7,538 nucleotides of DNA from a virus (Duplodnaviria; Heunggongvirae; Uroviricota; Caudoviricetes): IMG/VR virus record IMGVR_UViG_3300014520_000035, one strand, 5' to 3'. Each line of letters begins with the position of its first letter. Positions within the stretch are counted from its first letter, which is position 1. A program made the translations under genes and the position numbers. Shown piece by piece: positions 1-6,826 of this stretch. The notes beneath the pieces were generated by a model. That model was not told the origin of the DNA. It saw only the letters and a program-made list of their open reading frames with translations, and ran no database searches.

Positions 1-76
1 GTGCCGCGATGAAACGGGTATTGAGGGTATATAAAAGAACATCAATGGGTACACAATGATGAAACAGGTGAGTTGA

Positions 77-111
77 GTTCAAACTGTAGTACAATTCTCT
101 CCAGTTTGAAC
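77..111 (+). other. 10-bp perfect inverted repeat (stem 77-86 / 102-111, 15-nt loop) in the emrE leader, ending immediately before the emrE Shine-Dalgarno
   Basis: Read directly: gttcaaactg ... cagtttgaac are exact reverse complements; followed by aggaaag then ATG at 127. No U-tract after it, so not a typical intrinsic terminator. Confidence 0.35.
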
Positions 112-126
112 AGGAAAGAATATTCT

Positions 127-459
127 ATGAACCCTTATATTTATCTTGGTGGTGCAATACTTGCAGAGGTCATTGGTACAACCTTAATGAAGTTTTCAGA
201 AGGTTTTACACGGTTATGGCCATCTGTTGGTACAATTATTTGTTATTGTGCATCATTCTGGTTATTAGCTCAGACGCTGGCTTATATTCCTACAGGGATT
301 GCTTATGCTATCTGGTCAGGAGTCGGTATTGTCCTGATTAGCTTACTGTCATGGGGACTTTTCGGCCAACGGCTGGACCTGCCAGCCATTATAGGCATGA
401 TGTTGATTTGTGCCGGTGTGTTGGTTATTAATTTATTGTCACGAAGCACACCACATTAA
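127..459 (+). CDS. emrE: SMR-family multidrug efflux transporter EmrE (110 aa)
   Basis: Translation from ATG 127 (MNPYIYLGGAILAEVIGTTLMKFSEGF...LLSRSTPH) matches E. coli EmrE as I recall it, four hydrophobic helices with the conserved glutamate in helix 1 (AEVIGT). AGGAAAG Shine-Dalgarno 8-14 nt upstream. The ORF-track start at 73 adds an unconserved 18-aa extension and is probably not the real start. Confidence 0.93.
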   Translation: MNPYIYLGGAILAEVIGTTLMKFSEGFTRLWPSVGTIICYCASFWLLAQTLAYIPTGIAYAIWSGVGIVLISLLSWGLFGQRLDLPAIIGMMLICAGVLVINLLSRSTPH

Positions 460-490
460 AAATAATTTGTTTCTAAACGACTAAAATATG

Positions 491-525
491 GAGGCTCTTA
501 TATTTATATGAGCCTCGTTTTATGC
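491..525 (+). terminator. Probable intrinsic terminator of emrE
   Basis: Perfect 7-bp stem gaggctc (491-497) / gagcctc (510-516) with AT-rich loop, followed by T-rich gttttatgcttttt, about 30 nt after the emrE stop. Confidence 0.5.
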
Positions 526-714
526 TTTTTGTTAATGTCTTTATTTTTTTATGTATTCTTTTGTGCTTTCAAGATTATGGCGTAAGAAAATTGCAATACG
601 ATTATTGTTGTATATTCAAGATAATGTGACCTTAATTGTCTTTTTAAATAAAAATTAAACAAAATTATATCCCACCACTAAGGTTTATAAAAGCATACGT
701 TAGCAGGTGTCACC

Positions 715-2241
715 ATGAAAAAAGCCATAGCATATATGCGATTTTCATCACCAGGTCAGATGTCTGGCGACTCATTAAACCGACAGAGAAGACTTATTGC
801 TGAATGGTTAAAGGTAAATAGTGATTATTATCTTGATACCATAACATATGAAGATTTAGGATTAAGTGCATTCAAAGGAAAGCATGCACAATCAGGAGCT
901 TTTTCGGAATTTTTAGATGCTATAGAGCATGGTTATATATTGCCAGGAACTACATTGTTAGTTGAAAGTCTGGACAGACTTTCAAGAGAAAAAGTCGGTG
1001 AAGCGATTGAACGTCTGAAATTGATTTTGAATCACGGTATTGATGTTATAACTCTTTGCGACAATACAGTCTATAATATTGACTCTTTGAATGAGCCATA
1101 TTCATTAATAAAAGCCATACTTATAGCACAAAGGGCAAATGAAGAAAGCGAGATAAAGTCAAGTCGGGTTAAATTATCATGGAAGAAAAAACGGCAGGAT
1201 GCACTGGAATCAGGTACGATTATGACGGCGTCTTGTCCGAGATGGCTCTCCTTAGATGACAAAAGAACGGCTTTTGTTCCAGACCCCGACAGGGTGAAAA
1301 CTATTGAGCTAATTTTTAAACTCAGGATGGAAAGGCGCTCATTGAATGCAATAGCCAAGTATTTAAATGATCATGCTGTAAAGAATTTCTCAGGAAAAGA
1401 AAGTGCATGGGGACCTTCTGTAATTGAAAAATTATTAGCGAATAAAGCTCTGATAGGTATATGCGTACCTTCATATCGTGCAAGAGGTAAAGGAATAAGT
1501 GAAATCGCTGGCTATTATCCCAGAGTCATATCAGATGATTTGTTTTACGCTGTACAGGAAATTCGGTTGGCACCTTTTGGTATTAGCAATAGTAGCAAAA
1601 ATCCTATGTTGATAAATCTACTTCGAACAGTTATGAAGTGCGAGGCTTGTGGTAATACCATGATTGTTCATGCGGTATCTAGAAGTTTGCATGGCTATTA
1701 TGTTTGTCCGATGAGAAGACTGCATCGATGTGACAGGCCATCAATAAAGAGAGATTTGGTTGATTATAATATCATTAATGAGTTGCTTTTTAATTGTAGT
1801 AAAATCCAACCAGTTGAAAACAAGAAAGATGCTAATGAAACTTTAGAGTTGAAAATTATTGAGCTCCAGATGAAAATTAATAATTTAATTGCTGCATTAT
1901 CTGTTGCGCCTGAAGTTACCGCTATAGCAGAAAAAATCAGAGTATTAGATAAGGAATTACGAAGGGCTTCTGTATCATTAAAAACTTTGAAGAGTAAAGC
2001 GGTGAGTTCACTTGGTGATTTTCATGCTATTGACTTAACCAGTAAAAATGGGCGAGAGCTATGTCGTACACTTGCCTATAAAACATTCGAAAAAATCATA
2101 ATCAATACAGATAATAAAACCTGTGATATCTATTTTATGAATGGCATTGTTTTTAAACACTATCCTTTAATGAAAACAATATCCGCCCAGCAGGCGATAA
2201 GTACTCTCAAATATATGGTTGATGGTGAGGTTTATTTTTGA
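715..2241 (+). CDS. ybcK: Large serine recombinase (resolvase/invertase catalytic domain plus recombinase domain and Cys-rich zinc-ribbon region), DLP12 YbcK-like, 508 aa
   Basis: N-terminal AIAYMRFSSPGQ fits the serine-recombinase catalytic motif (Y-x-R-x-S-x-x-x-Q). C-terminal half has a CxxC ... C ... C cluster (CEACG ... CPMRRLHRC) and a predicted coiled-coil, as in large serine recombinases. The 255-bp gap to emrE and the length match my recollection of K-12 ybcK. AT-rich codon usage. Confidence 0.88.
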   Translation: MKKAIAYMRFSSPGQMSGDSLNRQRRLIAEWLKVNSDYYLDTITYEDLGLSAFKGKHAQSGAFSEFLDAIEHGYILPGTTLLVESLDRLSREKVGEAIERLKLILNHGIDVITLCDNTVYNIDSLNEPYSLIKAILIAQRANEESEIKSSRVKLSWKKKRQDALESGTIMTASCPRWLSLDDKRTAFVPDPDRVKTIELIFKLRMERRSLNAIAKYLNDHAVKNFSGKESAWGPSVIEKLLANKALIGICVPSYRARGKGISEIAGYYPRVISDDLFYAVQEIRLAPFGISNSSKNPMLINLLRTVMKCEACGNTMIVHAVSRSLHGYYVCPMRRLHRCDRPSIKRDLVDYNIINELLFNCSKIQPVENKKDANETLELKIIELQMKINNLIAALSVAPEVTAIAEKIRVLDKELRRASVSLKTLKSKAVSSLGDFHAIDLTSKNGRELCRTLAYKTFEKIIINTDNKTCDIYFMNGIVFKHYPLMKTISAQQAISTLKYMVDGEVYF

Positions 2242-2265
2242 GTAATAATCACTTTTTCAACCGTG

Positions 2266-2343
2266 CTATAGTAAGAAAGTTAGGTAAGTACATTAAAATT
2301 ATCTATCCTGAACGAAGCGTCCTGAGCTATGGTTTTACTATAG
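2266..2343. repeat. 9-bp perfect inverted repeat ctatagtaa (2266-2274) / ttactatag (2335-2343), each containing the palindrome CTATAG, bracketing the probable promoter region of the first cassette ORF
   Basis: Read directly from sequence; candidate operator pair or recombination half-sites. Function not established. Confidence 0.3.
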
Positions 2344-2352
2344 AGACTGCCA

Positions 2353-2676
2353 ATGGATGCTGGCGTTCTCGTTCTAGCAGTTCAACAATACCCAATCACA
2401 AAACAATTCACTGATAACGAACTTTGCACACTCGCCTGGTTATGGCGAGCAGGGAATGTGATGTTAATTACCTACCAGAACGTTACTCCTCTTCTTCAGG
2501 TTGCGGAGCATCGTGAAGCTGGTCGCTTCACTTCTATCGAGCAAGAATATCCCCAGATACTCAATAAGGCACAGGCAATCCTTGCCAGAGAAACGGCACA
2601 TGTAAAATTCCGGCCGTGGCAGGATGATAAGTGGAGTCGAGTTTTGCCGCATTTACGTTCGGATCGATTACAGTAG
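2353..2676 (+). CDS. Hypothetical protein (107 aa; alternative start ATG 2461 gives 71 aa)
   Basis: Open frame from the six-frame track with no family I recognise. The in-frame ATG at 2461 has a better Shine-Dalgarno (AGGGA, about 6 nt upstream) than the ATG at 2353. Occupies the position where K-12 carries ybcL. Confidence 0.45.
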   Translation: MDAGVLVLAVQQYPITKQFTDNELCTLAWLWRAGNVMLITYQNVTPLLQVAEHREAGRFTSIEQEYPQILNKAQAILARETAHVKFRPWQDDKWSRVLPHLRSDRLQ

Positions 2677-2699
2677 ATTCCAATTAACAATGAGAAACA

Positions 2700-3125
2700 C
2701 ATAGCCACCCCGTGGTATTGAAACCATATAATGTTGGATTTGAAAACAGATCTTTTTCCATGTATTAATAACTACATCCCCGCGAGTGATTCAAAAAGGA
2801 GGGCCCAATTTTGTCCGAGTTTTTGTATTCCCCCGCATGCCGCTGCGGAGCACTACATCTGAGTGTCTGACTAGGGGATAAAATTAGACTGGATAGTGAG
2901 AAGAAAGTGGCGTGCTAGGCTGTGCCGAGTGCTACCAGTACACCCTGGGGGTGTGCAGCTTTCGCCGAGACTGTAGTGGGTATCGGTTAATGCACGAAAA
3001 ACCGAGAGGTCAGACAACCAATTTGCCGTAGGATTGTTTCCGGTGCGATACCGGTGTACTAACTGAAAGCAATGCGAAAAAGCATAAACTCGGTCCTTCA
3101 GTCGCCCTACACACTATTTACTAAG
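2700..3125. ncRNA. Candidate structured non-coding RNA, or long structured leader of the downstream ORF; strand undetermined
   Basis: About 430 bp with stop codons dense in all six frames (no ORF in the track; longest I find is 43 codons, 2731-2862), yet noticeably more G+C-rich than the two AT-rich ORFs flanking it, with many short G/C-rich complementary segments. No tandem repeats and no tRNA or tmRNA signatures. Confidence 0.3.
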
Positions 3126-3137
3126 AAGGGCTAAAGC

Positions 3138-3494
3138 ATGGATACAATTATCACATGGATGGGAGATCGTCTGTTGGGGTGGATAACAAACAAATCCGAT
3201 CTGCGGCAGAGGGCAATCACTGGATTAACTCCTGCGATTTATTCAACAATTTTATATACTGAAAAATTAAAACGTGGTGAGCCTAATAACCCAAACGAAG
3301 AAGAAAAACTTTATAGGCTTTGGTATGAAGCGTCTTCCCAAGTCGTAGACTTTGATCGAGAGCTGGCTAAAAGATGTTTAGATAAATCAGAATATTGGCT
3401 TCATTCTGAATTATATAGCCCTGAGAAAGTTGGAGAGCTAAACATTTCTTTGGTTGGTATGAAGGCAACGCTTGAAGGAATAAAGCACAATTAA
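3138..3494 (+). CDS. Hypothetical protein (118 aa), low-GC accessory gene
   Basis: ORF with Shine-Dalgarno AAGGG 6-10 nt upstream of ATG 3138; strongly AT-rich codon usage unlike the downstream nin genes; no family recognised (charged, likely soluble). Confidence 0.55.
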   Translation: MDTIITWMGDRLLGWITNKSDLRQRAITGLTPAIYSTILYTEKLKRGEPNNPNEEEKLYRLWYEASSQVVDFDRELAKRCLDKSEYWLHSELYSPEKVGELNISLVGMKATLEGIKHN

Positions 3495-3681
3495 AACCTT
3501 TGATTTGCGATAATCAACTCGCCATAATCATGTCATCGGAGCCTGAACAACTCCGGTGACTTCTGCGCTAAACGGGGACGTTTATGCGCACACACAATCC
3601 AAACTCTCTTCTCCCTCCACAGATGCAGAAATGCACCTGCGATATATTGTATCCAGCGTTTGACCTCTGCGGAGGTGAAGC

Positions 3682-4137
3682 GTGAATCTCCCACAAGATG
3701 GCATCAAATTACATCGCGGTAACTTCACCGCTATCGGTCGGCAGATCCAGCCTTATCTGGAGGAGGGCAAATGCTTTCGCATGGTGCTTAAACCGTGGCG
3801 TGAGAAACGCAGTCTTTCCCAGAATGCACTCAGCCACATGTGGTACAGCGAAATCAGTGAATACCTCATCAGCAGGGGTAAAACGTTCGCTACTCCAGCT
3901 TGGGTAAAAGATGCTCTCAAACACACATATCTCGGTTATGAAACCAAAGACCTGGTTGATGTTGTAACCGGTGATATCACCACTATCCAGTCGTTACGCC
4001 ATACCTCCGATCTTGATACCGGAGAGATGTATGTCTTCCTGTGTAAGGTTGAAGCCTGGGCGGTGAATATTGGCTGCCACCTGACTATTCCGCAGAGCTG
4101 CGAGTTCCAGCTGCTCCGCGACAAGCAGGAGGCGTAA
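3682..4137 (+). CDS. ybcN: NinB/Orf-family protein YbcN (151 aa), GTG start
   Basis: Translation [39 protein letters not shown]... matches DLP12 YbcN as I recall it; GGAGG Shine-Dalgarno at 3671-3675 before GTG 3682. Confidence 0.9.
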
Positions 4138-4307
4138 TGGCTACACCGCTTATTCGTGTCATGAACGGACACATCTACAGAGTACCAGATCGTCGTAAGC
4201 GTAAACCGGAGCTGAAGCCTTCCGAAATACCAACACTGCTCGGATATACCGCCAGCCTGGTTGATAAAAAATGGTTGCGACTGGCAGCAAGGAGGAATCA
4301 TGGCTGA
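4137..4307 (+). CDS. ninE: NinE family protein (56 aa)
   Basis: Not in the ORF track (too short). Manual translation from ATG 4137 (overlapping the ybcN TAA as TAATG) gives [56 protein letters not shown], the lambdoid NinE sequence. Confidence 0.85.
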   Translation: MATPLIRVMNGHIYRVPDRRKRKPELKPSEIPTLLGYTASLVDKKWLRLAARRNHG

Positions 4308-4590
4308 TTTGAGAAAAGCAGCGCGTAGTCGGGAATGCCAGGTAAGAATCCCTGGCGTATGTAATGGCAACCCTGAAACGTCTGTACTGGCACATATCCG
4401 GCTGACTGGATTGTGCGGCACCGGTACCAAACCGCCAGACCTGATTGCCACCATTGCATGTTCTGCCTGCCACGACGAAATCGACCGCCGCACACATTTT
4501 GTCGATGCTGCATATGCAAAAGAATGCGCGCTGGAAGGTATGGCGAGAACACAGGTTATCTGGCTGAAAGAGGGGGTTATTAAGGCGTGA
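4300..4590 (+). CDS. ybcO: DUF1364-family protein YbcO (96 aa), putative nuclease
   Basis: Translation [64 protein letters not shown]... with its Cys cluster. ATG 4300 overlaps the ninE stop (ATGGCTGA) and is preceded by AGGAGG. The ORF-track start at 4261 would overlap ninE and lacks a Shine-Dalgarno. Confidence 0.88.
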
Positions 4591-4949
4591 ATACCTACAG
4601 CATCACATTACCCTGGCCTCCGAGCAATAATCGCTATTACCGCCATAATCGCGGGCGCACGCACGTCAGCGCAGAGGGGCAGGCATACCGCGATAACGTC
4701 GCCCGAATCATTAAAAACGCAATGCTGGATATCGGCCTGGCTATGCCTGTGAAAATCCGCATTGAGTGCCACATGCCGGATCGCCGTCGCCGTGACCTGG
4801 ATAATCTGCAAAAAGCCGCTTTTGACGCACTCACTAAAGCAGGTTTCTGGCTGGATGATGCTCAGGTCGTTGATTACCGCGTTGTGAAGATGCCTGTTAC
4901 CAAAGGTGGGAGGCTGGAACTGACCATCACCGAAATGGGGAATGAATGA
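4587..4949 (+). CDS. rusA: Holliday-junction resolvase RusA (120 aa), GTG start
   Basis: Translation [38 protein letters not shown]... matches RusA; start overlaps the ybcO stop (GTGA). Confidence 0.93.
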
Positions 4950-5086
4950 TGTTTGAGTTTTATATGGCAGAACGTCTTCGCCACCGCTGGGGGCGTCTGC
5001 GCTTATATCGTTTCCCCGGTTCTGTTTTGACCGATTACCGAATACTGAAGAATTACGCCAAAACCCTGACAGGAGCAGGAGTATGA
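4946..5086 (+). CDS. ylcG: Small DLP12 protein YlcG (46 aa)
   Basis: Manual translation from ATG 4946 (overlapping the rusA stop, ATGA): [46 protein letters not shown]. Not in the ORF track because of its length. Confidence 0.75.
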
Positions 5087-5171
5087 AGTCAGAGATAACA
5101 ATCAACTAATACTGTTTCGTTGATTTTTGCTTGTAATTGGCGTTCTGGTCTGATTTTTGTGGAGTAAGTTG

Positions 5172-5555
5172 ATGCGTGATATTCAGATGGTTCTTGAGCG
5201 TTGGGGAGCGTGGGCGGCTAATAATCATGAAGATGTGACCTGGTCGTCCATTGCCGCCGGTTTTAAGGGATTAATTACTTCAAAAGTAAAATCTCGCCCG
5301 CAATGTTGTGACGATGACGCGATGATCATTTGCGGGTGCATGGCCCGTCTGAAAAAGAACAACAGCGATTTGCACGATTTATTAGTAGATTATTATGTAG
5401 TCGGTATGACATTCATGTCACTGGCAGGTAAGCATTGCTGCTCTGATGGTTATATCGGGAAAAGGTTACAGAAGGCTGAGGGCATAATTGAAGGGATGTT
5501 AATGGCATTAGATATCCGGTTAGAGATGGATATCGTTGTTAATAACTCTAATTAA
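5172..5555 (+). CDS. quuD: Late-gene antiterminator Q (127 aa)
   Basis: Translation [34 protein letters not shown]... with Cys-rich region ([12 protein letters not shown]) matches DLP12 QuuD; GGAG Shine-Dalgarno 7 nt before ATG 5172. The ORF-track start at 5157 is a TTG without a Shine-Dalgarno. Confidence 0.88.
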
Positions 5556-5735
5556 TACGCCAATTATTTACTAAAAGTTATTAAAAATGGGGCGTTGAAA
5601 CGCCCCCAAAAATAAAGGGTAATATATAACAGAAGGTTTGTATAGTTAGAAGCAAGGTTGTGCTTCTAAAGGAAGTGGCTTGAGGGAGCCACTTATATGT
5701 TGGGGAGGCAAAGCCTCCCACAACATATCTTTTAG
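5556..5735 (+). promoter_or_regulatory. Probable late regulatory module (PR'-like promoter, qut, short 6S-like leader, tR'-like terminator) downstream of Q, also serving as the convergent terminator zone with nmpC
   Basis: Three further hairpins at 5648-5667 (agaagca/tgcttct), 5673-5694 (aagtggct/agccactt) and 5695-5728 (atatgttg-gggaggc / gcctccc-a-caacatat), the last followed by cttttag on the + strand. In lambdoid phages PR', qut and tR' lie immediately 3' of Q. Exact -35/-10 not assigned (TTGAAA at 5595 and TAATAT at 5620 are one weak possibility). Confidence 0.4.
5578..5606 (-). terminator. Candidate intrinsic terminator for leftward (nmpC) transcription
   Basis: Stem ggggcg (5589-5594) / cgcccc (5601-5606), loop ttgaaa. 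On the - strand the hairpin is followed by a U-tract (reverse complement of ttattaaaaat); on the + strand by A-rich sequence, so it is oriented for the - strand. Confidence 0.45.
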
Positions 5736-5743
5736 TAATCAAA

Positions 5744-6826
5744 TTAGAACTGGTAAACCATACCTACAGCAACGATATCATCGGTAGCAACGCCAGATGC
5801 TTTCGTGAAATCGCTCTTATCAATCAGGTTGATTTTGTAGTCAACAAAAGTGGACATATTTTTGTTGAAGTAATAGGTTGCACCTACATCAACATATTCA
5901 ACCAGGTCCTGATCACCCCAAACACCCAAGTCTTTTCCTTTAGAATGCAGGTAAGCAACGGATGGACGCAGGCCGAAGTCGAACTGATATTGTGCAACAG
6001 CTTCGAAGTTTTGTGCTTTGTTGGCAATATGGTTATTACCAAAAACAGTCATGTTCTGGGTTTCAGAATAGGTGGTGGCCAGATAGATGTTGTTCGCATC
6101 ATATTTCAGACCAGCTGCCCATACTTCAGCATTTTGACCAGAAGCATTCAGACCGTTGTTACCGTAGATAACCTGATTATTAGTGCGATCAGATTTAGCA
6201 TAGGTTGCACCCACGCCGAATCCTTCATACTCATAAGTAGTTGAGAAACCGAAACCATCGCCATTAGCTTCAGTTACTTCATTTCGGTCATTTTTGCCCT
6301 GATACTGAGCTGCAAAGTTCAGGCCATCAACCAGACCAAAGAAGTCGTTGTTACGATAAGTTGCAACACCTGTGGTGCGACCAGTCATGAATACATCTGT
6401 TTGGGTCCAGGTATCGCCACCGAATTCTGGCAGAACGTCAGTCCACGCACCGATGTCGTATGCTACACCGTAGTTACGGCCGTAATCGATTGAGCCGTAG
6501 TCACCGAATTTCAGGCCTGCAAATGCAAGACGGGTTTTGTCTTTGGAGGAACCTTGAGATTCAGCGCGGTTGCCTTTGAATTCATATTCCCACTGACCGA
6601 AACCAGTCAGTTGATCGTTGATTTGGGTTTCACCTTTGAAGCCAAGACGGGCATAAGTAGTATCACCATCATCTGCATCATTAGAGGAGAAGTAGTGCTT
6701 AGCATTAACTTTCCCGTACAGATCCAGCTTGTTACTGTCTTTATTATAAATTTCAGCTGCCTGAGCAGACATCGCCATCAGTACTGATGCAGCTACAGCA
6801 GAAATTGCCACTGTTAATTTTTTCAT
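5744..6826 (-). CDS. nmpC: Outer-membrane general porin of the OmpC/OmpF/PhoE family, NmpC-like (360 aa), apparently intact
   Basis: Signal peptide [23 protein letters not shown] followed by [17 protein letters not shown]..., C-terminal ...VGMVYQF (terminal Phe, typical of beta-barrel outer-membrane proteins). Full length with no internal stop, whereas I recall K-12 nmpC being disrupted by IS5. Confidence 0.93.

What the first reader, a model, noticed from the sequence alone, without database searches (positions are those of the whole stretch)
2242..3681. Unrecognised accessory cassette (small ORF, ~430-bp non-coding block, small ORF) in place of K-12 ybcL-ybcM-ylcH
The flanking genes (emrE and ybcK on the left, ybcN-ninE-ybcO-rusA-ylcG-quuD on the right) are the conserved DLP12 backbone. 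The interval between them does not encode the PEBP-like YbcL or the AraC-like YbcM that I recall from K-12. It instead holds two AT-rich ORFs (107/71 aa and 118 aa) with no family I recognise, separated by a long ORF-free block. Variable cargo at a fixed position in lambdoid prophages is where morons, defence and superinfection-exclusion genes accumulate, so this is a candidate for an undescribed accessory system. The function is entirely hypothetical.
Basis: partly seen in the sequence, partly recalled or inferred. Interest (0 to 1): 0.7.

Follow-up and report, generated by a model that had tools for sequence, protein, structure and literature searches.

The report
Unannotated structured RNA in lambdoid prophages
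The "ORF-free block" between two small genes of this E. coli prophage is a previously undescribed, about 330-base folded RNA that recurs in related prophages of several gut bacteria, always just ahead of a swappable accessory gene, while the two flanking ORFs are a dead gene fragment and an uncharacterised phage protein.

Summary
The cassette is real but was mis-weighted. Compared with K-12 DLP12, window 2281-3498 replaces ybcL-ybcM. The 33-aa ylcH-like ORF (3584-3685) is retained. ORF1 (2353-2676) is the C-terminal P22AR remnant of a Rha/antirepressor gene. ORF2 (3138-3494) belongs to an uncharacterised four-helix phage family (phrog_12412) and is internally deleted in about 60 of 160 E. coli carriers.

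The main result is the "non-coding block". Window 2776-3103 (+) is a two-domain, about 328-nt structured RNA. In 20 distinct copies, 92 base pairs are 96.7% paired, against 32-46% when the partners are slid, and 22 pairs carry compensatory double changes. It shows no codon periodicity and has no Rfam 15 match even at E<=10.

It occurs, never annotated as RNA, in 159 of 5426 E. coli genomes and in Klebsiella, Enterobacter, Citrobacter and Obesumbacterium prophages. It always sits at the replication/nin boundary. It is followed by an intrinsic terminator or directly by one variable gene, with five unrelated cargo types seen.

Function is unknown. My best inference is a cis-acting leader that gates the downstream accessory gene. 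A trans-acting RNA and an RNA-plus-swappable-effector module remain open.

The parts
2281..3498 (.). Segment that replaces K-12 ybcL-ybcM. The mosaic boundaries lie 39 bp after the ybcK stop codon and at the start of the ylcH/ybcN backbone.
   Evidence: blastn of the window against K-12-type locus L118 aligns 1-2280 and 3499-5785 only.
2353..2676 (+). ORF1, 107 aa. It is the C-terminal P22AR domain only, i.e. a 5'-truncated remnant of a Rha/antirepressor-type gene and probably a pseudogene.
   Evidence: Pfam PF10548 at E=1.1e-15 covers the whole 73-position model. PHROG anti-repressor Ant families match only their C-terminal ends. Window 2366-2658 is 88% identical to the 3' end of the 250-aa Rha gene of phage PhiR5_1.
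2740..2768 (+). Promoter-like element: -35 TTGAAA (2740-2745), a 17-nt spacer, and -10-like TATTAA (2763-2768). It would place the transcription start at about 2776, the first base of the RNA's first helix.
   Evidence: TTGA(A/T)(A/T) or TTGTAT, then 17 nt of diverged spacer, then an AT-rich hexamer, are conserved in all lineages. This is inferred. The consensus scanner does not call it because the -10 is non-canonical.
2776..3103 (+). Structured RNA core, about 328 nt, a new family (covariance model R1).
   Evidence: RNAalifold and pair counts. G-U pairs fit the + strand only. Variable columns fall 42/39/43 over the three codon phases, and stop codons occur in all frames. No Rfam hit at E<=10. 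No tRNA or tmRNA.
2776..2879 (+). RNA domain 1, closed by AUCCCC (2776-2781) paired with GGGGAU (2874-2879). It contains almost sequence-invariant helices and a 19-codon UUG micro-ORF (2811-2870) behind an AAGGAGG motif.
   Evidence: Helices 1-5 are mostly invariant, so the pairing is compatible but carries little covariation. The micro-ORF is frame-shifted in L080 and is invariant at third codon positions too.
2887..3103 (+). RNA domain 2, closed by GACUGG (2887-2892) paired with UCAGUC (3098-3103). It is a multi-branch domain and holds the helices with most of the compensatory changes: 2903-2963, 2964-2987, the variable arm 3034-3059, and the hairpin AUGC-GAAAAA-GCAU at 3072-3085.
   Evidence: Helices 8, 9, 11, 12, 13 and 16 contain 19 of the 22 pairs that carry double changes. 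The pair at A6 columns 203-212 shows five different standard pair types.
2866..2871 (+). 5' strand (UCUGAC) of a candidate inter-domain pseudoknot with 3009-3014.
   Evidence: Both strands are invariant except in L134, where C-G becomes U-A at A6 columns 102/242. That is a single compensatory event, so this is tentative.
3009..3014 (+). 3' strand (GUCAGA) of the candidate pseudoknot.
   Evidence: As above (helix 6: 99.2% of cells paired).
3138..3494 (+). ORF2, 118 aa, an uncharacterised four-helix phage protein (phrog_12412). It starts 34 nt after the RNA with no terminator in between, so the RNA would form its 5' leader.
3499..3685 (+). Conserved backbone shared with K-12: a promoter-like site at 3500-3528 and the 33-aa ylcH-like ORF at 3584-3685, which overlaps the ybcN start. 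It is not part of the cassette.
   Evidence: Phage 82 record X92588 annotates -35/-10 signals and orf33 here.

Best explanation
Window 2281-3498 is a mosaic accessory segment. Its only deeply conserved, functional-looking part is a new structured RNA of about 328 nt (2776-3103, + strand).

The RNA folds into two domains (17 helices, about 92 pairs), probably tied together by a 6-bp pseudoknot. It is transcribed rightward with the early-right/nin genes. It probably starts at its own conserved -35/-10-like element, so that the transcript would begin at the first helix.

In most lineages the RNA ends at an intrinsic terminator, which is followed 24-47 nt later by one accessory gene. In the window lineage and two other cargo lineages there is no terminator, and the RNA runs straight into the start of the next gene (here ORF2).

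My best inference is that the RNA acts in cis, through its folded shape. It would be a leader that sets or gates read-through or translation into whatever accessory gene occupies the slot between it and the ylcH/ninB backbone promoter.

Shown: the conservation, the fold, the strand, the non-coding nature, the position, and the two junction types.
Inferred: the promoter, co-transcription, and the gating role.

ORF1 is a dead Rha/antirepressor fragment. ORF2 is one of several interchangeable cargo genes.
For: Real and conserved:
- The block is 78% identical to Klebsiella phage Kp4856-1, although the flanking genes differ.
- 31 distinct copies were collected from IMG/VR, metagenomes and genomes.

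Fold:
- 82 pairs are 98.2% paired on 21 sequences.
- The refined structure has 92 pairs, 96.7% paired against 32-46% when slid, with 22 pairs carrying double changes, and 0 of 500 shuffles reach the observed values.

Non-coding and strand:
- Variable columns fall 42/39/43 over codon phases, all frames hold stops, and 1-2-nt indels occur.
- G-U pairs fit the + strand only.

New family:
- No Rfam hit at E<=10.
- Never annotated as RNA in 159 E. coli genomes, where the RefSeq annotation shows no feature at all.
- Sequence-string and keyword literature searches found nothing.

More constrained than its neighbour:
- The RNA is at least 98% identical and full length in 158 of 159 E. coli carriers.
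- ORF2 in the deleted form is only about 92% identical.

Unit architecture:
- A -35-like TTGAnn, a diverged 17-nt spacer and an AT-rich -10-like hexamer are conserved.
- A terminator follows directly after the RNA in the K-, L055-, L062-, L065- and L134-type copies. The scanner calls it in L055.
- Cargo start codons lie 24-47 nt after the T-run, or 25-45 nt after the RNA when no terminator is present.
- The RNA and ORF2 have diverged together in Escherichia, Enterobacter and Obesumbacterium, and the RNA and the 176-183-aa gene have done so in Klebsiella and Citrobacter.
Against: - There are no expression data.
- The promoter is not called by the consensus scanner in the window, L003 or L055. 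The RNA could simply be part of the pR transcript.
- The single-sequence folding energy is no better than shuffled sequences (z = -0.29).
- Diversity is shallow. There are about 8-10 lineages, all Enterobacteriaceae, at 74-100% identity, so the covariation counts are not independent events. Domain 1 is almost invariant, so its helices are untested.
- I found no convincing terminator/antiterminator alternative pairing by eye.
- The cargo genes are functionally incoherent, which is unusual for a sensing leader.
- Cargo families and the RNA each occur without the other.
- Genes in the nin region normally need no promoter of their own, so a short RNA-to-cargo spacing does not prove a dedicated operon.
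Confidence: 0.4

Rival explanations
1. The RNA is a stand-alone, trans-acting structured RNA (an 'RNA moron'). It would be made from its own promoter in lysogens, ended by its terminator or cut out of the ORF2 mRNA leader, and would work by binding a host or phage protein as a scaffold, decoy or sponge. The variable gene next to it would be unrelated cargo. That cargo would be shuffled by recombination between two conserved anchors, the RNA on the left and the ylcH/ninB promoter region on the right.
For: - Long invariant stretches lie in loops and junctions, which is typical of tertiary contacts or protein contacts.
- Most lineages have a promoter-like element and an intrinsic terminator.
- L055 has no cargo gene at all between the terminator and the backbone.
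- The RNA and the cargo families are separable.
- No co-occurring partner gene was found nearby.
Against: - Three cargo lineages lack any terminator, so no discrete RNA would be made there without processing.
- The promoter is non-canonical.
- No partner or target has been identified.
Confidence: 0.3
2. The RNA is the constant sensing or regulatory part of a two-part prophage defence or exclusion module, in which the second part is a swappable toxic effector. The logic would resemble retrons or CBASS, where a constant sensor is paired with variable effectors. The terminator would keep the effector dose low.
For: - One constant RNA is followed by five unrelated single-gene (or two-gene) cargo types.
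- ORF2-family relatives are fused to TIR and alpha/beta-hydrolase domains.
- The 176-183-aa cargo has an invariant IRxRHNLLHANKYE motif, which is HEPN-like (Rx4H).
- Another cargo type has terminal membrane-like helices (read from the sequence).
- The promoter-RNA-terminator-gene layout matches ToxIN and RCd22/AbiF (PMC12373285).
Against: - No PADLOC, Pfam or PDB sequence hit for any cargo protein.
- L055 has no effector.
- ORF2 is decayed in about 40% of E. coli carriers while the RNA is intact.
- Cargo families occur without the RNA.
- No toxicity or defence data exist.
Confidence: 0.12
3. The locus is a type III toxin-antitoxin or abiF-like pair, in which the RNA is a cognate antitoxin that binds and neutralises the downstream protein.
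For: The layout (RNA, terminator, small protein gene) is shared with ToxIN and with RCd22/AbiF in a C. difficile prophage. The RNA and its cargo have diverged together within two cargo families.
Against: - There are no tandem repeats in the RNA.
- The Rfam models, which include ToxI and the abiF motif, give no hit.
- The same RNA precedes unrelated proteins, which a cognate antitoxin could not all bind.
- No Abi_2, ToxN or other toxin family was detected.
- ORF2 decays while the RNA stays intact, the opposite of addiction logic.
Confidence: 0.06
4. The block is not a functional RNA. Its conservation would reflect recent horizontal spread, a DNA-level site, or missed small ORFs such as the hypothetical CDSs called in phage Turner.
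For: - E. coli copies are nearly identical.
- The folding-energy z-score is not significant.
- The phage Turner record annotates two small CDS inside the block.
- A 61-aa ORF is open in eight non-E. coli copies.
Against: - Across genera, invariant blocks alternate with stems that change by compensatory substitutions, with up to five pair types at one pair.
- G-U pairs are strand-specific.
- There is no codon periodicity, and frame-breaking indels and in-frame stops occur. The 61-aa frame has a stop at codon 3 in the window.
- Flanking genes on both sides are replaced while the block is kept.
Confidence: 0.05

Closest known systems
abiF RNA motif / RCd22 with AbiF (prophage of Clostridioides difficile; PMC12373285) and type III toxin-antitoxin systems such as ToxIN
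   Same: All are prophage-borne. The layout is a non-coding RNA, then an intrinsic terminator, then one small protein gene on the same strand. The RNA is expected to limit expression of that gene.
   Different: This RNA is about 330 nt, non-repetitive and two-domain. It does not match the Rfam ToxI or abiF models. It precedes at least five unrelated proteins, or none. No toxin family was detected.
Riboswitch- or T-box-type 5' leaders
   Same: A structured RNA begins at the putative transcription start. It is followed either by an intrinsic terminator or directly by the start of the gene, the two classical kinds of expression platform.
   Different: No known aptamer class matches. It is unusually large. 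The downstream genes share no function. No alternative terminator/antiterminator pairing was identified. Any ligand is unknown.
Large 'ornate' phage-associated RNAs of unknown function (GOLLD, ROOL; PMC12286853)
   Same: It is a large, intricately folded, non-coding RNA carried on prophages, with many conserved unpaired nucleotides and unknown function.
   Different: There is no sequence or structure match to those Rfam models. It is about half their size or less. It is restricted to lambdoid prophages of Enterobacteriaceae and sits at one fixed position in the genome. Multimer formation was not tested.
HK022 put RNAs and terminated leader RNAs of lambdoid phages (lambda 6S / StxS from pR'-tR'; PMC7547250)
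   Same: These are cis-encoded RNAs in lambdoid early or late operons, positioned just before a terminator that controls expression of downstream phage genes.
   Different: From my own knowledge, put RNAs are about 70 nt with two hairpins and lie next to pL/pR. The pR' leaders are short and lie after Q. This RNA is about 330 nt, lies between the replication genes and ninB, and has no sequence relation to either. Antitermination was not tested.
Rha / P22 antirepressor family (for ORF1 only)
   Same: The C-terminal P22AR domain is complete, and ORF1 is 88% identical at the DNA level to the 3' end of a full-length Rha gene.
   Different: The N-terminal domain is missing, because the homology starts at window 2366. 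ORF1 is a remnant, not a functional antirepressor.

Membership tests
Any Rfam 15 RNA family (4227 models, including ToxI, the abiF motif, c4 antisense RNA, GOLLD, ROOL, tmRNA, RNase P, 6S, group I/II introns and riboswitches) | A score against the family covariance model | tested here: not met
   No match at E<=1 on the whole window and none at E<=10 on 2740-3140 with permissive filters. ARAGORN finds no tRNA or tmRNA.
Type III toxin-antitoxin (ToxIN-like) | The antitoxin RNA is built from tandem direct repeats that the toxin processes | tested here: not met
   Tandem Repeats Finder reports nothing in 2240-3700 at minimum score 30.
Type III toxin-antitoxin (ToxIN-like) | A terminator lies between the RNA and the downstream protein gene | tested here: inconclusive
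   It is present in the K-, L062-, L065-, L055- and L134-type copies. It is absent in the window, L120, L122, L080 and L106.
Type III toxin-antitoxin / AbiF-RCd22 | A cognate toxin of a known family (ToxN/AbiQ, CptN, TenpN, Abi_2) lies downstream | tested here: not met
   There are no Pfam or PADLOC hits for ORF2 or the other cargo proteins. The same RNA precedes unrelated proteins.
Retron | A reverse transcriptase gene lies next to the non-coding RNA | tested here: not met
   No reverse transcriptase appears among the ORFs of 20 carrier loci.
Riboswitch / cis-regulatory leader | It lies in the 5' untranslated region, co-oriented with and directly upstream of the regulated gene | tested here: met
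   In every copy a co-oriented gene starts 25-105 nt after the RNA or its terminator.
Riboswitch / cis-regulatory leader | Mutually exclusive terminator and antiterminator (or RBS-sequestering) pairings, and a defined ligand | tested here: inconclusive
   Inspecting the junctions by eye gave no consistent alternative pairing. A ligand cannot be tested with these tools.
Independent sigma-70 transcription unit | A recognisable -35/-10 promoter | tested here: inconclusive
   A -35-like hexamer, a 17-nt spacer and an AT-rich hexamer are conserved across lineages. The consensus scanner calls none of them.
P22AR / Rha antirepressor (ORF1) | The C-terminal P22_AR_C domain | tested here: met
   PF10548 at E=1.1e-15, model positions 3-73 of 73.
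P22AR / Rha antirepressor (ORF1) | The N-terminal (Rha/ANT/Bro-type) domain of full-length members | tested here: not met
   ORF1 has only 107 aa. Homology to the 250-aa Rha of PhiR5_1 covers its 3' end only. PHROG Ant profiles match only their C-terminal parts.
HEPN ribonuclease (183-aa cargo of the Klebsiella-type copies, not in the window) | An Rx4-6H motif in a HEPN four-helix fold | tested here: inconclusive

The most novel reading that the evidence does not exclude
The about 330-nt RNA is the constant component of a new kind of prophage module in which a folded RNA, with no reverse transcriptase or Cas-type partner, senses a signal such as infection, induction or host state. It would then license expression or activity of whichever toxic or accessory effector sits behind it. 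In effect this would be an RNA-gated, effector-swapping defence or exclusion cassette at the replication/nin boundary of lambdoid phages.
Probability: 0.12. Interest if true: 0.9.

Novelty: categorically new. Interest (0 to 1): 0.7.

Why it matters
E. coli and its lambdoid prophages are among the best-annotated genetic systems. Even so, a large, pseudoknotted RNA with covariation support sits unannotated in about 3% of complete E. coli genomes and in relatives from at least four other genera. It matches none of the 4227 Rfam families.

If it is a cis-acting gate, it would be a new leader class that controls accessory (moron) genes, or read-through towards the Q antiterminator gene. If it acts in trans, it would be a new phage RNA that targets a host or phage factor.

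In either case it marks a hypervariable single-gene slot filled with entirely uncharacterised proteins, including relatives of TIR-fused domains. That makes the slot a practical place to look for new phage-host conflict functions.

The covariance model R1 and the alignments A2, A4 and A6 make the family directly searchable. Two isolated phages, Turner and IdasGreatGrand, make it experimentally accessible.

The 'categorically new' label applies to the RNA family only.

Tried and rejected
- Known RNA family: Rfam at E<=1 and E<=10, and ARAGORN, gave nothing.
- Protein-coding block: rejected on codon phase, stop codons and indels.
- Opposite-strand RNA: rejected because the G-U pairs fit the + strand, and the terminator and promoter-like element point the same way.
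- Single-sequence thermodynamic support: none, z = -0.29 on + and -0.09 on -.
- Tandem-repeat antitoxin: none.
- All-against-all column covariation, to find extra pairs: too noisy with so few clades, so abandoned.
- Alternative long-range pairing CCGAGUUU/AAACUCGG: rejected because it is broken in L054 and L055, while pairing with 3002-3007 covaries.
- The small hairpin GGU...ACC around 3008-3019: dropped in favour of the pseudoknot on the evidence of L134.
- Wider distribution: the scan of one genome per species gave only 3 hits that look like chance (Bacteroidia, Sulfurimonas, Microbacteriaceae). One was checked (L088, 30% identity); the other two were excluded only because their motif spacing is wrong. 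The phage collection holds only 4 carriers.
- Partner protein: clustering the ORFs of 20 carrier loci found only ordinary replication and nin genes.
- Defence annotation of neighbours: PADLOC, Pfam and PDB sequence searches were all negative.
- HEPN fold for the 183-aa cargo: not confirmed.
- PIN-like reading of the 177-aa cargo (N-terminal IIIDSNAW): seen by eye only, with no family hit.
- The afdb50 fold library was unavailable.
- Literature: searches by sequence string, by lambdoid/nin/ncRNA terms, by prophage-defence-RNA terms and by structured-RNA discovery terms found no description. The Pas sRNA preprint and the Chi-hotspot lambdoid paper are unrelated. Only 200 of the 408 supplementary files of PMC8040213 could be searched.
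Full report
**1. What is in the interval**

The window is the early-right region of a DLP12-type lambdoid prophage. It carries emrE, the serine recombinase ybcK, ybcN/ninB, ninE, ybcO, rusA, ylcG, quuD and an intact nmpC-type porin.

Between them lie 461 bp with no conserved ORF.

A K-12-type locus has ybcK, ybcL, ybcM, a 33-aa ORF and then ybcN. Pairwise BLAST shows homology over window 1-2280 and 3499-5785 only. The replaced segment is therefore 2281-3498. The ylcH-like ORF (3584-3685), together with a promoter-like site at 3500-3528, is retained. That stretch is shared with about 2900 E. coli genomes and with phage 82, where -35/-10 signals and orf33 are annotated.

The whole cassette recurs in 95 of 5426 complete E. 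coli genomes and in the isolated phages Turner and IdasGreatGrand.

**2. The two ORFs are ordinary**

ORF1 matches Pfam P22_AR_C at E=1e-15 over the whole domain model. At the DNA level it aligns only with the 3' end of a full-length 250-aa Rha gene, which occupies the same slot in phage PhiR5_1. It is a 5'-truncated remnant.

ORF2 is phrog_12412, of unknown function.
- Its homologs keep exactly 118 aa at 51-99% identity.
- The AlphaFold2 model is a four-helix bundle with pLDDT 78. It matches only generic helical bundles.
- A profile search of 1.8 billion representative proteins finds 331 clusters. Most are stand-alone proteins of 120-135 aa. A few are fused to TIR or alpha/beta-hydrolase domains.
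- ORF2 is internally deleted to a 66-aa form at about 92% identity in roughly 60 of 160 E. coli carriers.
- Relatives at 42-51% identity sit elsewhere in prophages, next to integrase and a theta-like gene.

No neighbour matches PADLOC.

**3. The 'non-coding block' is the conserved part**

The block is 78% identical to an unannotated Klebsiella phage, although both flanking genes differ. The alignment has no indels, and invariant runs alternate with variable runs.

Exact-motif scans of IMG/VR and of metagenomes recovered dozens of copies. A covariance model, R1, built from 23 of them retrieved further, more divergent copies:
- L080 (297 bits)
- Citrobacter braakii L134 (302 bits)
- Enterobacter bugandensis L122
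- Obesumbacterium proteus L120
- E. coli strain 3426, L119

In E. coli the element is present and full length in 159 of 5426 genomes. It is at least 98% identical in 158 of them, and nothing is annotated over it in the RefSeq records. In the GenBank phage collection it occurs in only 4 of 50,697 records. A scan of one genome per species gave only three hits in unrelated taxa that look like chance. One of them was checked and showed 30% identity.

**4. It is a structured RNA read from the + strand**

RNAalifold predicts 82 pairs. On 21 distinct sequences 98.2% of cells are paired, against 35-46% when the partners are slid by 1-3 columns, and 14 pairs show compensatory double changes.

I then added the divergent copies, extended the variable arm by hand, and replaced a 3-bp hairpin with a 6-bp inter-domain pseudoknot. 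The refined model has 92 pairs in 17 helices:
- 96.7% of cells are paired, against 32-46% when slid.
- 22 pairs carry double changes, and one pair shows five different standard pair types.
- 0 of 500 shuffles reach the observed values.

Invariant and variable G-U pairs would be C-A mismatches on the other strand, so the + strand is the one that folds.

The variable columns fall evenly over the three codon phases (42/39/43). Every frame contains stop codons in some copies, and 1- and 2-nt indels occur. A 61-aa frame that is open in some copies has a stop at its third codon in the window.

Caveats:
- The single-sequence folding energy is no better than shuffled sequences.
- There are only about 8-10 independent lineages.
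- Domain 1 (2776-2879) is nearly invariant, so its helices are compatible with the data but not tested by them.
- The pseudoknot rests on a single C-G to U-A exchange in L134.

**5. It is a new family**

Rfam 15 gives no hit on the window at E<=1. On the 401-nt stretch alone it gives none at E<=10 with lax filters. ARAGORN finds nothing and there are no tandem repeats. Full-text searches for 13-19-nt strings of the RNA and for several topic combinations found no description.

**6. Anatomy of the unit**

*Upstream.* All lineages keep a -35-like hexamer (TTGAAA, TTGAAT, TTGATA or TTGTAT), then 17 nt of diverged spacer, then an AT-rich -10-like hexamer. This would place the start at the first base of helix 1, window about 2776. 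The consensus scanner does not call it in any of the three loci scanned (the window, L003 and L055), because the -10 lacks the canonical A2/T6 combination. The promoter is therefore an inference.

*Downstream, two junction types*:
- (A) An intrinsic terminator lies 10-15 nt after the last helix. A gene then starts 24-47 nt after the T-run. That gene is a 176-183-aa protein with an invariant IRxRHNLLHANKYE motif, or a 178-191-aa protein with hydrophobic termini. In L055 there is no gene before the backbone.
- (B) There is no terminator, and a gene starts 25-45 nt after the RNA. That gene is the ORF2 family in Escherichia, Enterobacter and Obesumbacterium, or a 177-aa family in L080 and L106. 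The 95 + 162-aa pair follows a degenerate terminator.

After the cargo comes the backbone promoter region and ninB or DUF1367.

The upstream genes also vary: the Rha remnant, a lipoprotein-like ORF, DUF550-type pyrophosphohydrolases and others.

More distant homologs of each cargo family lack the RNA. RNA and cargo are therefore separable. Within two cargo families, however, RNA and protein have diverged together across genera.

**7. How it most likely works**

Shown:
- a conserved, folded, non-coding RNA on the + strand
- a fixed position at the boundary between the replication and nin modules
- two junction types
- stronger conservation of the RNA than of ORF2

Inferred (confidence about 0.4): the RNA is the structured leader of a small rightward unit. 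Through its fold it sets or gates read-through, or translation, into the accessory gene that follows. The split between a terminator and a direct junction is the classical pair of expression platforms for cis-acting leaders, and the transcript would begin exactly at the first helix.

Against this inference:
- The cargo genes have no common function.
- I found no alternative terminator/antiterminator pairing.
- nin-region genes are normally transcribed from pR in any case.

Rivals:
- A trans-acting 'RNA moron' that binds a protein, with the cargo variety explained by recombination between two conserved anchors (0.3).
- A constant RNA sensor with swappable effectors (0.12). It is suggested by the effector-like look of the cargo set. 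It is not supported by PADLOC, by fold searches of the 183-aa protein, or by the decay of ORF2.
- A cognate type III/abiF-like antitoxin (0.06). It fails on the repeats, the Rfam models and the unrelated partners.
- No RNA function (0.05).

**8. Comparison with known systems**

The nearest architectures are RCd22/AbiF and ToxIN (RNA, terminator, toxin), riboswitch or T-box leaders, the large ornate phage RNAs GOLLD and ROOL, and lambdoid put or pR' leader RNAs. Each membership test that could be run was either not met or inconclusive (see the table). The resemblance is one of layout only.

**9. Verdict**

The 'undescribed accessory system' of two ORFs dissolves into a gene remnant and a common dark-matter phage protein. 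The ORF-free block is a well-supported, previously undescribed structured RNA family of lambdoid prophages.

I have high confidence (about 0.9) that it is a genuine structured RNA family absent from Rfam. I have low-to-moderate confidence in any particular mechanism.

Noticed in passing
window 5744-6826 (-): The nmpC/ompC-type porin gene is an intact 360-aa ORF here. The K-12-type locus L118 has an IS5 transposase next to its porin gene.
   Followed up: no
window 73-2241; L002 (phage Turner) 2621-4736: The host-type genes emrE (SMR efflux) and ybcK (large serine recombinase), usually thought of as DLP12 prophage cargo, are carried at 99% identity by the free, isolated phages Turner and IdasGreatGrand.
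   Followed up: partly
window 2811-2870 (+), inside RNA domain 1: A 19-codon UUG-initiated micro-ORF (MSEFLYSPACRCGALHLSV) lies 8 nt behind a strong AAGGAGG motif. It is open in all copies but frame-shifted in L080, and it is nucleotide-invariant at third codon positions too. It is more likely an RNA-level constraint than a peptide, but a dual function is not excluded.
   Followed up: partly
L080 3145-3375 and 4411-4617 (- strand): The backbone region that normally lies just upstream of ninB (spurious ORF MTSSHLRGLKCDHNLNSSP...) is duplicated upstream of the RNA in this contig. This suggests that the RNA-plus-cargo unit moved by recombination within that promoter region.
   Followed up: no
L133 2457-3000; L129 2447-3000; L131 2541-3000: Homologs of the cargo genes that lack the R1 RNA are still preceded by ORF-free gaps of 460-555 bp. 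The L133 gap is rich in hairpins and contains UUCCCCCGCGAUGUGGGGAU-like elements. These gaps might hold a second, unrelated RNA.
   Followed up: partly
P0056, P0125, P0115 (relatives of window ORF2, 3138-3494): The ORF2-like four-helix domain occurs fused to TIR_2 domains at either end, and to a DUF676-type alpha/beta hydrolase. This is a pattern typical of conflict-system adaptor or effector-associated domains. The family has no Pfam entry.
   Followed up: partly
L003 4416-4967; L134 3001-3531; alignment A7: The 176-183-aa cargo family has an invariant I-R-x-R-H-N-L-L-H-A-N-K-Y-E motif (HEPN-like Rx4H). Its all-helical model is confident (pLDDT 86) but matches no solved fold significantly.
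   Followed up: yes
L003 about 4378-4402: The scanner did not report the clear hairpin-plus-T8 terminator after the Klebsiella-type RNA (AAACCGCCTACCGGCGGTTTTTTTT), although it seems to meet the stated criteria. The equivalent site in L055 was reported.
   Followed up: no
window 2242-2524: The first 280 bp or so after ybcK are 81% identical to unannotated DNA of several lambda-like phages (Lambda_4C10, 4A7, Perceval and others). This is a further mosaic joint that I did not analyse.
   Followed up: no
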